From the NCBI GenBank assembly GCA_000004985.1, contig GG738875.1: a stretch of DNA of 64,000 bases, one strand, 5' to 3'. The DNA comes from Naegleria gruberi. Taxonomy: Eukaryota. The notes below the pieces were generated by a model. That model was not told the DNA's origin and did not search any database. It saw nothing but the letters and a program-made list of their open reading frames with translations. This document shows positions 41,419 to 60,536 of the stretch, in pieces. Numbering within the stretch: the first letter of the stretch is position 1; every line of letters starts with the position of its first letter. The translations under genes were made by a program, and so were the position numbers.

Positions 41419-41491
41419 TGCTGACGGACGGGATCGAACCGGCGACCAATGGCTTATTAGACCAACGCTCTACCGACTGAGCTACGCCAGC
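41419..41491 (-). tRNA. tRNA-Ile, anticodon AAT.
   Basis: The reverse complement reads GCTGGCG-TA-GCTC-AGTCGGTA-GAGC-G-TTGGT-CTAATAA-GCCAT-TGGTC-GCCGG-TTCGATC-CCGTC-CGTCAGC-A. This is a cloverleaf with a 7-bp acceptor stem, GTTCGATC T-loop, U33 and A37. One mismatch each in the anticodon stem and the T stem. Confidence 0.8.
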
Positions 41492-55283: not shown

Positions 55284-55693
55284 TTATGTGAATGAGAAAC
55301 CTTGGCATGGGAAGGATAGTGAAATTTATGTTCGATCGACATGATATTATTAATCTCTTCAAACTTCAAAATGGTACACGATTCCGATAACCTCTCATAT
55401 GAATTTTAAATTTGTCGAACAGGGCATCGTGCTGCTGTAGGGGAAGGATTGTGATCAATGAGAGAAATGATCACACAACAACACTCTGAATCATCGTTTT
55501 GCATTTTTTTTATTTAAATTTGCTTATTGTAAAGGCACTAATACAAACTTCTTTTCAGAATGTTGAATGTTACTAGCTAGTCAAAGTTTCAAGCATTACA
55601 TATGCAACACTCATAAACTTAGCAACAAAATTTTGAGATGATGCCAAACTTGAGAATGTTGGTAAAAAGATAAAAGACTACAGCACCACAGGT

Positions 55694-55834
55694 TCCCAAG
55701 TTGTCTCCAACCTCAGTACTGATGTGGCTCGACGATAAAAGACTACAGCACCACAGGTTGCTTAACTTCTCAAATCGGACGGGATGAGGTGCATTCATCG
55801 TGATATGGCCGTAGCCATTTATAACCTTAAATAG
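55694..55834 (-). rRNA. Second 5S rRNA copy with an internal 23-nt duplication; variant or pseudogene.
   Basis: It is identical to the 47672-47789 copy except for one substitution near the 5' end (GGCTACGG versus GACTACGG). An inserted aaaagactacagcaccacaggtt also repeats the gene's own 3'-terminal 23 nt between ...gctcgacgat and gcttaac.... Both copies share about 25 nt of 5' and 3' flank. Confidence 0.6.
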
Positions 55835-56065: not shown

Positions 56066-56123
56066 TCCCGTGTAGTCCAATGGCTAGGATACCTGGCTTT
56101 CACCCAGGAGGTCCGGGTTCAAT
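56066..56123 (+). pseudogene. 3'-truncated tRNA-Glu(TTC)-like sequence.
   Basis: TCCCGTG-TA-GTCC-AATGGCTA-GGAT-A-CCTGG-CTTTCAC-CCAGG-AGGT-CCGGG-TTCAAT follows the tRNA-Glu pattern through the T-loop. The 3' T-stem and acceptor strand (expected CCCGG..CACGGGA) are replaced by GGGAGGATATTTTTG. Confidence 0.45.
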
Positions 56124-56189
56124 GGGAGGATATTTTTGTTTTTCAACACGCAAAATCAAATAATAAAATGTTCATTTATTAAAATTATC

Positions 56190-58289
56190 CTAGACCTTCA
56201 TTTTGGGTAAAATGCTTAGCTCCTTTTCCAATTGTTTCTCATATGATGCTTGGAAACGAGTGTAATTATCCAACATGTTGTGTTCACAAGCTGTTTGAAT
56301 TCTATCAAATATTTCAGGAGTGATGGCAAAGAGGAAACTCATATCTTGTGGATTTGTGGAAGTTTGCTTTGGAGAAATATTCAATTTTGGAGAAGGTGAA
56401 ACATTTCCATTTTTAGAAGCAAAATTAATGGTACTGTCTTTTAGGGATTTGAAGATTTTCTCAATTTCTGGAATTCCAAAATCCTTTCTTGAAATGTTCA
56501 ATTCAAGAGGAGCTCCAATTCGAATATAAGTATTACAAATATTGTAAAATAATTCTCTTCTTTGTTTTTCTGATTTGATTGTTTTGAATTTCTCAATGGC
56601 ATTCCACATCATGACATCTTCACATGCAAAACATTTTTCTGAGAATTTCAGAAAGAGATTATTCCACTTTTCATTCAGTAAAATCTTTCGAATGCTACTT
56701 TCAGAAGGTTTCGAATGTTGAAGTTTAGAATCAACTGATGGAGTGCTTTCTGTATGTTGTTTCTTGTCAGATTTGAATCTTTGAAGGAAGAATACAGGAT
56801 ACGTGAATGAAATTAATGTATCCCACATATTTCCAATTAAAATTGTAATCGTCCATGGGAAATAATAATCAATACTTTACAAAATATTACAATTATTATT
56901 CTAATCTCAGATATATATTACTTACTAGGTTGTAAAAATAGTGAATAAAGAAGGCACAGCATACAATACAATAAAAAAAACCCATCCAAATATCACAACA
57001 ATAACCTCAATCTTAATATGCCAAACATCTCTCTTGGTAAAGAATGAAAACAATAACAGTAAAACTCCAATAAATCCATAAAAGGCAAAATAACTAATGA
57101 AAATATTTTGATTGTAAGATCCAGTTCCACATCCAGATGGTGAAAATAAATAACTATCAATTGTAAAGCTATTTCTCGAATTGCTTGATGCACCTCCAGT
57201 ATTTTGAAAATTGAAATAGTCAATTGTGCCAATAATTAGGAAAATTAAAATGTGTAGAGCTAGTAATAATCCATAATAAATGAAAATAAATTTGGAGCTC
57301 ACTAGAAATCTCATAATGGAAATTAATTTGCCTCTTTCGAATGATTCTAATAGAGTTTCTTTTCTGAAAATCATTTCGTCTTCAAGTGGTTTGTCAGTTG
57401 TGATATCTTTTGGTTCGATTGTGAATTGTGACATAATGCTTGAAGTTCTGCCAACTGTCAATGCTGACAATGAGGTTCTATTGGTAGCTTTCAATAATCC
57501 AGATGAGCTAGAAACACTGCTTGTTTCTGAATGAACTTTCAATTCTTTCATTTCAGTGTCAGTTGTCAATGGGTTGTTGGCAGATGGAGGAGTATTATTC
57601 AATGTTTCCAATATATCCAAACTCACATTTGCATCCATAAGTGGTTTCATATTTTCTGATGATGTTGTTGCATGCAAGTCATATTGTCTCTTTCCAATCC
57701 TCACTTTCAATTCGTTCAGTTTGGTCAATACCAACAATCTAATACATCTCAATATGACAGTATTCGAAAGTGCAGGCACAGCCAAATAATAGATTAGTGA
57801 AAATATGAAACATGGATAAATCTTTCGTCCAATTAACACTCTAGTCATTAATACGAAAGTATAGGTCCATCCAATAATTGCTCCCATGACCATCAATGCT
57901 GGATTCCTGGCAACCTGCAAATAATTCACAACTTGTTTGTGTTCCTTTTGGAGAATATGCAACATTCTCAATTTATAAACTAAACCTCCAACCGAAACTA
58001 ATAACAAACATGTGTGAATAAAGAGGATAATTGCTGAAATAACAACAGCTGATGTGGTATCATCACACAATCCCTTCTCACTCTTGTTTCCTTGTGAAAG
58101 GAGGAGTGGATGACAAACTGTGCTGTCATTATACATGTTGGTAGAGTTGACTATTAGTGAGGTGTTGATATTGAGCGTTGTGTGGATGTTGAAAATGGGC
58201 ACATGCATGTTGGTGACATGGAACGTCAACGTGGATAAAAATCCATCAAACATGCCATTTGTCTCTTCGGAATGAGCATTCAAATCCAT
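56190..58289 (-). CDS. Seven-transmembrane receptor-like protein with a C-terminal RGS domain (7TM-RGS), paralog 1: complement(join(56190..56874,56926..58289)).
   Basis: Track ORF 56925-58304 has six hydrophobic helices and ends ...SLFTIFTT then tag. A GTAAGT donor sits two nt into that stop codon. A 51-nt intron (56875-56925) then joins in frame to YIDYYFPWTITILIGNMWDTLISFTYPVFFLQRFKS (helix 7). This runs into track ORF 56190-56828, whose RGS domain is ILLNEKWNNLFLKFSEKCFACEDVMMWNAIEKFK...ELFYNICNTYIRIGAPLELNI...ACEHNMLDNYTRFQAS. The real ATG is 58289 (cttgaaaATG). Confidence 0.7.
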
Positions 58290-58535
58290 TTTCAAGTTGG
58301 CCAATTGAAAAAGGTGATATGAGTTGATTAGTTTTTTTTTCTTCTTTAAAATTGTTATGGTTCACCATTGAGCGACTTTGTCCTCTCAATGAAAGTGAAC
58401 CTTGATTGTGAAATCTTGATAAAATTTATTTGGGAATCTGATTTCTAATTTGTGCTATTCCATTAGTGGCCCTGAAAAACTATTCGAAAGAAGACTATTA
58501 GTTGTAGATTGGTAGAGTTGAATGTTGGTTGTTTA

Positions 58536-60536
58536 TTACACTTTAAGCTTGGCTACGATATCCAATTCCTTTTCCAATTGTTTCTCATACGATGCTTGGA
58601 AACGAGTATAATTATCCAACATGTTGTGTTCACAAGCAGTTTGAATCTTGTTGAATATTTCAGATGTTATTGAGAATAACAAATTATTTGGGTCAACCTT
58701 TGCATTGTTATTCGAAACCTTTGGAGAAACATTTCCATTCTTTGAGGCAAAATTAATGTTACTCTCCTTTAATGCATGATAAATGTCCATAATTTCTGGA
58801 ATTCCAAAATCCTTTCTTGAAATGTTTAATTCAAGAGGAGCTCCAATTCGAATATATGTATTACAAATATTGTAAAATAATTCTCTTCTTTGTTTTTCTG
58901 ATTTGATTGCTTTGAATTTCTCAATGGCATTCCACATCATGACATCTTCACATGAGAAGGATTTCTCTGCGAATTTCAGAAAGAGATTATTCCACTTTTC
59001 ATTCAGTAAAATCTTTCGAATACTACTCTCACCAGAAATATTTACACTGGAAACTGAAGGATTGGTCGAGAGAGCTGGTTCAATGGAATTACCCTCTGAC
59101 TTGTTTGATTTGAATCTTTGAAGCACAAAAACTGGATAACTGAATGAAATGAGTGTATCCCACATGCATCCAATTAAAATTGTAATTGTCCATGGGAAAT
59201 AATAATCAACACTTTAAAATGTTAAGTTATCAAAACTTAATGATACCTACTATGTGGTAATAATTGTAAATAAGGAAGGAATACTAAAAGCAAGAACAAT
59301 AGCAGCCCAAAACAAGTTAATAATCACAACTTCAATCTTAATATTCCACACGTCTCTCTTTGCAAAAAAGGCAATTATGGATAGTAAAATTCCAATTAAT
59401 CCATAAAAGCAAAAGTAGCTAATGAATATATATTGATTGTAAGCTCCAACTCCACATCCAGATGGTGAAAATAAATAACTATCAATTGTAAAACTATTTC
59501 TCTTTTGATTTGTTTTTACAGAAGTATCATTTTGATAATTGAAATAGTCAATAATGGCAATGATAAAGTAAATGCTCAAGTGAAATCCAATGACCACAAC
59601 ATAGCTCAATAAAACAAATTTGGAGCTCACGAGAAATCTCATGATGGAAAGTAATTTTCCTCTTTCGAATGATTCTAATAGAGTTTCCTTTCTGAAAATC
59701 ATTTCCTCTTCCACATTATTTTCATCATCATCTGCATTACTATCCTTAGGTTCAATTACAAATTGTGAGAGAATACCTGAAGTTCTGCCAACTGTTAATG
59801 CTGACAAATTTGTACTGTTCTGATTTCCAGCTAAACTACTATTCGAAATGGATAAACTATCAAGAGACGTAACTGTTTCCAATTCCTTTTCCACTTGATT
59901 TTGTGAAATATTCGTGTTTTCCTCAATCATGGATTTCATATTGTCCGATGATGTTGTTGCATGCAAATAATATTGTCTCCTTCCAATCCTCACTTTCAAT
60001 TCGTTCAGTTTCGTCAATATCAACAATCGAATACATCTCATAATAATAGTATTCGAAAGTGCAGGAATAGCAATAAAATAGATTAGTGAAAATATGAAAC
60101 ATGGATAAACCTTTCGTCCAATTAACACTCTCCCCATCAACATGAACGTATAAGACCATCCAATCAGTGCTCCAATTACCATTAATAATGGATTCCTTGC
60201 AACCTGCAAATAATTCACAACTTGTTTTTGTTTCTTCTTTAAAACATGCAACTTTCTCAATTTATAAACTAAACCTCCAACCGAAACCAAAACGAGCATT
60301 GTGTGAAGAAACAAAACAATGGCAGAAATTACTGTGGAAGAGGTCATGTCATCACACAATCCCTTCTCACTCCTATTTCCAAGAGCTAATAGGAGAGGAT
60401 GACACACAGCACTATCATTGTATTTGTTATAGGTATTGTTGTTGTTAATGGTGATGGAATCGTTGGAAAGAGTTTCGAATATGTTGTAGGAAAGAGATGT
60501 AATGACATCAGCATGTGGTTGGTGGTGAAAGGACAT
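58536..60536 (-). CDS. 7TM-RGS protein, paralog 2: complement(join(58536..59211,59251..60536)).
   Basis: Same architecture as paralog 1. A GTAGGT donor inside the tag stop of the 7TM ORF and a 39-nt intron (59212-59250) give ...SLFTIITT-Y-VDYYFPWTITILIGCMWDTLISFSYPVFVLQRFKS and the RGS domain. The bridging peptide differs from paralog 1 by 2 of 15 residues, although the ORF track treats it as intergenic. Confidence 0.7.

What the first reader, a model, noticed from the sequence alone, without database searches (positions are those of the whole stretch)
56190..60536. Tandem paralogous 7TM-RGS genes whose seventh helix is hidden in a conserved mini-exon
Each unit looks like two ORFs separated by about 90 bp: a six-helix membrane ORF and an RGS-domain ORF. 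In both copies a GT donor sits two nucleotides into the stop codon of the membrane ORF. A short intron (51 nt in one copy, 39 nt in the other) then reaches an exon encoding (I/V)DYYFPWTITILIG(N/C). That peptide is conserved between the paralogs and continues in frame into MWDTLISF...; it is hydrophobic and supplies a seventh helix. The result is a GPCR-like receptor with its own C-terminal RGS domain, the AtRGS1-type design, duplicated in tandem.
Basis: seen in the sequence. Interest (0 to 1): 0.7.

Follow-up and report, generated by a model that had tools for sequence, protein, structure and literature searches.

The report
Tandem Naegleria seven-helix RGS receptor genes
Two neighbouring genes of the amoeba Naegleria gruberi each encode a seven-helix membrane receptor joined to a G-protein "off-switch" (RGS) domain; this kind of protein is already known in Naegleria, but the public annotation wrongly splits one of the two copies into two genes.

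The parts
56926..58289 (-). Copy A exon 1: N-terminal extracellular tail, TM1-TM6 and a roughly 120-residue disordered ICL2 loop. It ends 2 nt into the apparent TAG. The public model EFC43219.1 starts at Met52 (58136).
   Evidence: helix positions from the AlphaFold model
56875..56925 (-). Copy A intron: 51 nt, phase 2, GTAAGT...TTGTAAAG.
   Evidence: The public model P0001 uses the identical junction. It is 41% identical to the copy B intron and has a 12-nt indel.
56190..56874 (-). Copy A exon 2: end of ECL3, TM7, linker, RGS box and stop codon (56190-56192).
56790..56849 (-). Copy A TM7 (residues 464-483, ITILIGNMWDTLISFTYPVF). It spans the ATG that the ORF finder took as the start of the RGS ORF.
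   Evidence: AlphaFold helix 413-432 of P0001, pLDDT about 95; coordinates
56229..56693 (-). Copy A RGS box (residues 516-670), with a roughly 35-residue low-complexity insertion (56328-56432) between helices.
   Evidence: Pfam PF00615 34.7 bits; Foldseek matches to RGS16, RGS8 and RGS4 with target-normalised TM-score 0.7-0.8; the C-terminal helices align to the complete RGS domain of P0115
59251..60536 (-). Copy B exon 1 (TM1-TM6). It is annotated publicly as a separate 428-aa protein, EFC43221.1 / NAEGRDRAFT_68912.
59212..59250 (-). Copy B intron: 39 nt, phase 2, GTAGGT...TTTTAAAG. It is not recognised in the public annotation.
58536..59211 (-). Copy B exon 2: end of ECL3, TM7 (59127-59186), linker, RGS box (58575-59021) and stop codon. 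The public annotation has only the part from Met445 onward, as the 209-aa protein EFC43220.1 / NAEGRDRAFT_49971.

Best explanation
Each unit is a single two-exon Naegleria gruberi gene encoding a 7TM RGS protein. The parts are a short glycosylatable extracellular tail with two conserved cysteines, a seven-helix GPCR-type bundle of class-C-like fold with a long disordered second intracellular loop, a short linker, and a cytoplasmic RGS box. One short phase-2 intron interrupts the codon at the ECL3/TM7 boundary. Its GT overlaps what looks like a stop codon, so ORF finders, and the public annotation of copy B, see two genes. The protein most likely works as a membrane-anchored GTPase-activating protein: the RGS box speeds up GTP hydrolysis on Naegleria G-alpha subunits, and the 7TM domain places that activity at the membrane and may gate it in response to an extracellular cue. 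Shown here: the gene structure, the conservation, the fold, and family membership. Inferred from experiments on N. fowleri relatives and from conserved contact residues: the GAP activity. Speculative: ligand gating. The two copies come from an old tandem duplication (dS about 0.7), and both remain under purifying selection.
Confidence: 0.9

Rival explanations
1. Two separate genes per unit, as the public annotation has it for copy B: a six-helix membrane protein ending at the TAG, and an independent soluble RGS protein translated from the MWDT methionine.
For: GenBank lists EFC43221.1 (428 aa) and EFC43220.1 (209 aa) as separate proteins. An ENA contig also yields the 428-aa ORF. An ATG is present at that position in both copies.
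Against: The 45 nt upstream of the ATG are the most conserved stretch in the gene, and conservation starts exactly at the AG acceptor. DYYxP is invariant across the family. The methionine is not conserved: it is Ile in N. lovaniensis 002444. The RGS ORF would begin with half a transmembrane helix. A six-helix protein would be an incomplete GPCR bundle. The homologs in Acrasis and Willaertia are continuous across this point. Copy A is annotated as a fused gene.
Confidence: 0.03
2. Both forms exist. Regulated intron retention yields a truncated six-helix product without the GAP domain alongside the full 7TM RGS protein, which would uncouple the receptor part from the RGS part.
For: An unspliced message stops right at the donor in every homolog: TAG in N. 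gruberi, TTG-TAA in the others. From general knowledge, intron retention is the commonest form of alternative splicing in protists.
Against: A stop at that point follows automatically from a phase-2 intron with a GTAAGT-type donor, so it is not evidence of design. Acrasis and Willaertia have no intron there, so such a switch cannot be general to the family. No transcript data are available.
Confidence: 0.07
3. Copy B is a decaying or non-functional duplicate whose 39-nt intron with a GTAGGT donor is no longer spliced efficiently.
For: It has the shortest intron of the seven homologous introns examined (39 nt against 47-130 nt), a weaker donor, and a split annotation.
Against: Both exons of B are open. 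The family's invariant residues are all present in B. The pairwise dN/dS of 0.25-0.35 at dS of about 0.7 indicates long-term constraint. Introns as short as about 30 nt are allowed for when mapping Naegleria RNA-seq reads (PMC8296547).
Confidence: 0.04

Closest known systems
Naegleria fowleri 7TM RGS proteins (Bosch, Jeck & Siderovski 2022, PMC9283941)
   Same: Same genus and same architecture: an N-terminal seven-helix domain and a C-terminal RGS box. It is a large expanded family (28 in N. fowleri). The membrane-domain profile built from the window genes retrieves N. fowleri RGS-domain proteins such as FDP41_005079. GAP activity on G-alpha subunits was demonstrated for the RGS domains of some members.
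   Different: The four proteins studied there have large extracellular regions (EGF-like repeats, lectin domains, GPS motifs). The window proteins have only a tail of about 70 residues with two cysteines. I did not establish whether the window subfamily is among the 28 listed. The paper does not discuss a class C relationship or the intron.
Arabidopsis AtRGS1 and plant RGS1 (7TM-RGS)
   Same: Same layout and the same expected topology: N-terminus outside, RGS box in the cytosol. The RGS boxes are homologous (hhalign 97.7%, E 2.5e-12), and the Glu and Asn aligned with E320 and N363 are conserved. The probable logic is the same: a receptor-like GAP acting on G-alpha subunits.
   Different: The 7TM domains show no detectable sequence homology: hhalign on the 7TM parts alone gives 0.6%, E 0.097, equal to the reversed controls. 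Plant proteins lack the roughly 120-residue ICL2 loop and the insertion in the RGS box. Plants carry about one copy, against a large expansion in Heterolobosea. One plant ortholog has a 7tm_3 hit below the gathering cut-off (27.6 bits), so a very remote common origin is neither shown nor excluded.
Class C GPCR transmembrane domains (Pfam 7tm_3: GABA-B, mGlu, GPRC5D, GPR156, GPR158)
   Different: There is no Venus-flytrap or other large extracellular domain. The window proteins do not hit 7tm_3 themselves. They carry a fused RGS box, which would switch G proteins off, not activate them.
GPR158/GPR179 with RGS7-Gbeta5 (animals)
   Different: In animals the RGS protein is separate and is recruited non-covalently. 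Here it is fused to the 7TM domain in one polypeptide. I know of no evidence for common descent of the arrangement.
Trichomonas vaginalis 7TM/5TM RGS proteins and fungal 7TM-RGS proteins (e.g. MoRgs7)
   Same: Membrane-spanning RGS proteins in another excavate and in fungi. TvRGS2 accelerates hydrolysis on TvG-alpha5 (PMC3865004). MoRgs7 is described as an RGS-like protein that is endocytosed on sensing hydrophobic cues (PMC10184898).
   Different: I did not compare their sequences here. None of the 20 profile hits that I identified by name came from outside Heterolobosea; they were Heterolobosea or unnamed environmental sequences.

Membership tests
RGS domain (Pfam PF00615) | Profile score above the curated gathering cut-off | tested here: met
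   34.7 bits (copy A) and 40.6 bits (copy B) against a cut-off of 23.9. The match covers only profile positions 2-71 of 117, because an insertion of about 30-35 residues interrupts the domain.
RGS domain (Pfam PF00615) | Complete all-helical RGS fold | tested here: met
   The top 40 or so Foldseek hits are RGS domains: RGS16, RGS8, RGS4 and others, with target-normalised TM-score up to 0.81 over about 150 columns. The C-terminal helices align to the complete RGS domain of P0115.
RGS domain (Pfam PF00615) | G-alpha contact residues retained (equivalents of RGS4 Glu87, Asn88 and Asn128; AtRGS1 Glu320) | tested here: inconclusive
   Glu (A540/B517) and Asn (A581/B558) are invariant in the family and align with plant E320 and N363. 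The Asn88 position is Asp (FSEENLEFW against FACEDVMMW). The residue roles and RGS4 numbering come from my knowledge of the RGS4-Gi-alpha1 literature, not from a tool.
RGS domain (Pfam PF00615) | GAP activity on a G-alpha subunit | not testable with these tools
   Shown only for the RGS domains of N. fowleri 7TM RGS2-4 (PMC9283941).
Naegleria / heterolobosean 7TM RGS family | Homologous membrane domain followed by an RGS box in one polypeptide | tested here: met
   The membrane-only profile finds 110 cluster representatives. 54 of the 71 longer ones carry Pfam RGS. All 13 that carry an organism name are Naegleria, Willaertia, Acrasis or Pharyngomonas.
Naegleria / heterolobosean 7TM RGS family | Seven transmembrane helices, with the N-terminus outside and the RGS box in the cytosol | tested here: met
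Naegleria / heterolobosean 7TM RGS family | The fused protein is made from a single mRNA | tested here: inconclusive
   Met in relatives: the Pharyngomonas transcript ORF and the uninterrupted exons in Acrasis and Willaertia. No N. gruberi transcript data were reachable.
AtRGS1-type plant 7TM-RGS | 7TM domain followed by a C-terminal RGS box (architecture) | tested here: met
AtRGS1-type plant 7TM-RGS | Membrane domain homologous to that of plant RGS1 | tested here: not met
   hhalign of the 46-sequence heterolobosean 7TM profile against the 14-sequence plant RGS1 7TM profile gives probability 0.6%, E 0.097. The reversed controls give E 0.14-0.21. The plant 7TM profile against the P0115 7TM gives E 0.26.
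Class C GPCR (Pfam 7tm_3) | 7tm_3 profile score above the gathering cut-off | tested here: not met
   No 7tm_3 hit for P0001 even at E <= 10. The criterion is met only by the distant family member P0115 (41.1 against 33.5 bits). P0076, P0079, P0084 and P0098 score below the cut-off.
Class C GPCR (Pfam 7tm_3) | Transmembrane fold closest to class C receptors | tested here: met
Class C GPCR (Pfam 7tm_3) | Large extracellular ligand-binding (Venus-flytrap) domain; activation of G proteins as an exchange factor | tested here: not met
   The N-terminal tail is only about 70 residues and has no Pfam domain. Some animal class C orphans also lack this domain. Exchange-factor activity cannot be tested with these tools.

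The most novel reading that the evidence does not exclude
The heterolobosean 7TM RGS proteins of this subfamily are true descendants of class C (7tm_3) GPCRs with an RGS box fused in cis, and their membrane domain is unrelated to that of plant AtRGS1. If so, the 'receptor-GAP' design arose more than once by independent fusions, and Naegleria carries a covalent counterpart of the animal GPR158-RGS7 arrangement. I found no statement of this in the papers I could search.
Probability: 0.4. Interest if true: 0.4.

Novelty: new member of a known kind. Interest (0 to 1): 0.22.

Why it matters
The practical value is a gene-model correction. NAEGRDRAFT_68912 and NAEGRDRAFT_49971 should be merged into one 653-aa 7TM RGS protein. 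Other Naegleria family members with very short introns at this site may be split in the same way, which would distort counts of 7TM RGS, RGS-only and orphan membrane proteins in comparative surveys. Prokaryote-style gene calls on environmental contigs split them systematically (P0006, P0008). Conceptually, the class-C-like fold and the lack of detectable homology to the AtRGS1 membrane domain bear on a modest evolutionary question: are 7TM RGS 'receptor GAPs' in plants and excavates one ancient invention or repeated fusions? The protein class and its biochemical activity in Naegleria are already published, so this is not a discovery of a new system.

Tried and rejected
1. The first AlphaFold run on a 9-sequence alignment gave pLDDT 45 and pTM 0.27 and was unusable. 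The 46-sequence alignment solved this.
3. The N. gruberi proteins P0001 and P0004 are not in the contig index, and the spliced copy B product is not in the protein collection. No N. gruberi transcript evidence could be obtained.
4. The afdb50 fold library was unavailable, so no structural comparison with the AlphaFold model of AtRGS1 was possible.
6. The full-length hhalign hit to plant RGS1 (E 2.5e-12) looked like support for homology running into TM5-TM7. I rejected that reading after the 7TM-only test and its reversed controls.
7. Removing the RGS insertion did not extend the phmmer alignment to solved RGS structures.
8. A translational frameshift instead of splicing is ruled out, because all three frames of the gap contain stops.
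9. Synteny between the N. gruberi and N. lovaniensis tandem pairs was not found. Only the RGS genes themselves match.
10. An orthologous one-to-one relationship between the two tandem pairs is rejected by the tree. A and B group together with 100% bootstrap support, and the N. lovaniensis pair groups together with 97%.
11. The idea that the stop codon at the donor is a designed feature is rejected. It follows automatically from a phase-2 intron with a GTAAGT-type donor.
Full report
**What the window is.** The window has 33.8% G+C. The spliced product of the downstream copy matches a Naegleria gruberi predicted protein at 100% identity. Exact look-ups give accessions EFC43219.1-EFC43221.1, all on one 396-kb scaffold. 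The finding therefore lies in the nuclear genome of the heterolobosean amoeba N. gruberi, and both genes are on the minus strand.

**Checking the observation.** Each unit consists of a long membrane ORF and an RGS ORF in a different frame. In copy A the ORFs are 58304-56925 and 56828-56190, with a 96-nt gap. In copy B they are 60536-59250 and 59165-58536, with an 84-nt gap. In both copies the G of the terminal TAG is the first base of a donor, GTAAGT in A and GTAGGT in B. Removing 51 nt (56925-56875) or 39 nt (59250-59212), each ending in AAAG, joins the frames. The result is ...SLFTI(F/I)TT-Y-(I/V)DYYFPWTITILIG(N/C)-MWDTLISF... and products of 682 and 653 residues. Without splicing, all three frames of the gap contain stops, so a frameshift cannot join the ORFs. 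Pfam RGS is above its gathering score in both products.

A frame-restoring GT..AG pair is not remarkable on its own. I counted 13-16 such pairs per copy. Conservation is what singles out the proposed pair. Between the copies the intron is 41% identical with a 12-nt indel, like the non-coding flanks at 32-33%. The 46 nt directly after the acceptor are 89% identical, the highest value of any segment, even though they lie upstream of the supposed start codon of the RGS ORF.

There is no mini-exon. The conserved peptide is simply the first 15 codons of exon 2, which continues without interruption into the RGS region.

**Comparative evidence for the splice.**
- The public model of copy A (P0001 = EFC43219.1 / NAEGRDRAFT_68910, 631 aa) uses exactly this junction.
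- Copy B is annotated as two proteins, EFC43221.1 (428 aa) and EFC43220.1 (209 aa). The fused 653-aa product is not in the protein collection.
- N. lovaniensis has its own tandem pair (C9374_002444 and _002445). Both are modelled as fused, and both have an intron at the homologous site and in the same phase, TT|GTAAGT...AG|A-GTG-GAT-TAT-TAC, of 49 and 130 nt.
- A much more distant N. lovaniensis paralog, C9374_008759 (about 34% identical to copy A), has the same intron (130 nt).
- In a Logan contig from an unidentified relative, a prokaryote-style gene caller split the gene at the same place, giving "...ITTL*" followed by a 247-aa RGS ORF. The intron there is 47 nt.
- These introns share no sequence beyond the splice signals.
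- In Acrasis kona and Willaertia magna the homologous genes have introns elsewhere. TM6, TM7 and the start of the RGS box lie in a single exon.
- The homolog in Pharyngomonas kirbyi is a complete ORF from a transcriptome assembly (GECH01004910).

The fusion therefore does not depend on this splice prediction in other members of the family. D-Y-Y-x-P at the start of exon 2 is invariant across the Naegleria sequences.

**What the protein is.** An AlphaFold model built on a 46-sequence family alignment is confident (pLDDT 79.8, pTM 0.77). In P0001 numbering it shows:
- TM1 28-64, TM2 79-102 and TM3 109-161
- a disordered loop, 167-257
- TM4 281-312, TM5 340-365 and TM6 374-396
- a short ECL3 helix, 399-408, which contains the junction tyrosine
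- TM7 413-432, encoded by exon 2, at pLDDT about 95
- an all-helical domain, 464-623

Simple hydropathy finds six strong helices and only a marginal seventh. TM7 straddles the MWDT methionine, so about half of it was hidden upstream of the ATG.

Conserved cysteines at the top of TM3 and in ECL2, NxS/T sites in the N-terminal tail, and K/R-rich ICL1 and ICL3 all fit a topology with the N-terminus outside and the RGS box in the cytosol.

**The family.** A profile of the membrane part alone finds 110 cluster representatives among 1.84 billion proteins. Of the 71 longer ones, 54 carry Pfam RGS. I looked up 20 of the hits. The 13 that carry an organism name are all Heterolobosea: N. gruberi, N. lovaniensis, N. 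fowleri, Willaertia magna, Acrasis kona and Pharyngomonas kirbyi. The other 7 are unnamed environmental sequences.

The Pharyngomonas protein P0115 passes Pfam's 7tm_3 gathering score (41.1 against 33.5 bits) and has a complete RGS domain. The Naegleria subfamily aligns to it from TM1 to the end of the RGS box (99.6%, E 6e-24). The alignment also holds on the 7TM part alone (97.0%, E 1e-10, against E 0.24 for the reversed control). The window proteins themselves give no direct 7tm_3 hit.

**Comparison with AtRGS1.** I fetched plant RGS1 sequences from the database, using a remembered AtRGS1 sequence only as bait. The full-length profiles align significantly (97.7%, E 2.5e-12), but the RGS box drives that result. 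The 7TM parts alone score E 0.097, no better than the reversed controls at 0.14-0.21. The layout is therefore AtRGS1-like, but homology of the membrane domain was tested and not found. One plant ortholog has a 7tm_3 hit below the gathering cut-off (27.6 bits). A very remote common class-C-like origin therefore cannot be excluded.

In the RGS box, the Glu and Asn that align with plant E320 and N363 are invariant in the Naegleria family.

**Evolution of the pair.** Copies A and B group together (100% bootstrap), and the N. lovaniensis pair groups together (97%). The flanking genes are not syntenic. The tandem pairs therefore arose within each lineage, or gene conversion has homogenised them. Between A and B, dS is about 0.7 and dN/dS is 0.35 for exon 1 and 0.25 for exon 2 (0.19 for the RGS box). 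The duplication is old, and both halves have stayed under constraint.

**What is already known.** 7TM-RGS architectures are described in plants, Trichomonas and "many bikonts" (PMC3971589, PMC3865004). N. gruberi is reported to have 229 RGS genes (PMC3971589). Most directly, Bosch, Jeck and Siderovski (2022, PMC9283941) describe 28 seven-transmembrane proteins with C-terminal RGS domains in N. fowleri. They show that the RGS domains of three of them accelerate GTP hydrolysis on, and bind, specific Naegleria G-alpha subunits, some of which are self-activating. The likely mechanism here is therefore a membrane-anchored GAP for G-alpha, possibly gated by an extracellular signal. That mechanism is inferred from close relatives, not demonstrated for these two genes.

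**Verdict.** The feature is ordinary for this genus and largely known already. The modest new points are three:
- a corrected gene model for copy B
- a conserved ECL3/TM7 intron in the Naegleria subfamily that causes systematic splitting by ORF-based gene callers
- evidence that the membrane domain is class-C-like and not detectably related to that of AtRGS1

Noticed in passing
window 55675-55816 (-): A 5S rRNA gene lies about 370 nt downstream of copy A's stop codon (Rfam RF00001, 66.3 bits against gathering score 38, E 9e-13). The match spans 142 nt for a 120-position model, so it contains an insertion or extension.
   Followed up: no
window 56066-56128 (+): A 63-nt tRNA-like element lies between the 5S gene and copy A. 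It only just reaches the Rfam tRNA gathering score (29.5 against 29) and is not called by ARAGORN. The anticodon loop reads CTTTCAC (TTC, Glu-type) and the T-arm looks truncated. It may be a tRNA pseudogene or fragment.
   Followed up: partly
window 41419-41491 (-): tRNA-Ile (AAT) is the only tRNA that ARAGORN calls in the 64-kb window.
   Followed up: no
window 58136-58289 (-): The public model of copy A starts at Met52 (MYNDS, 58136), but the frame is open from an ATG at 58289. This N-terminal stretch is poorly conserved between the copies (42% DNA identity with gaps), so the true start codon is uncertain. Copy B has no methionine at the corresponding position.
   Followed up: partly
L001 7002-7098 and 9243-9310 (N. 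lovaniensis): Both N. lovaniensis tandem genes carry an extra intron inside the ECL2 coding region (after ...GCGTG) that is absent from both N. gruberi copies. The Acrasis and Willaertia homologs instead have an intron inside the RGS box (after ...PENL and after ...FWED). Intron positions have turned over within the family.
   Followed up: partly
P0005 (N. lovaniensis C9374_001237), alignment A1 columns about 200-260: This public gene model lacks the conserved TM3 segment (YPCF...LRxIRL) and has unrelated sequence in its place. It is probably a mis-predicted exon or intron.
   Followed up: no
L002 6001-8501 (Logan ERR1598038) and P0006 (ENA): Prokaryote-style gene calls on environmental or unidentified Naegleria-like contigs split this family at the same intron: a membrane ORF ending ...ITTL* and a separate RGS ORF. 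Such halves sit in large protein collections as unrelated entries.
   Followed up: partly
plant RGS1 proteins P0143, P0146, P0163, P0174, P0194, P0214 and others: Many plant RGS1 orthologs carry a precomputed Pfam 7tm_3 (class C GPCR) hit next to RGS. When I rescanned five of them, only P0143 reproduced it, below the gathering score (27.6 against 33.5 bits, but spanning profile positions 7-249 of 251). This hints that the AtRGS1 membrane domain may also be remotely class-C-like.
   Followed up: partly
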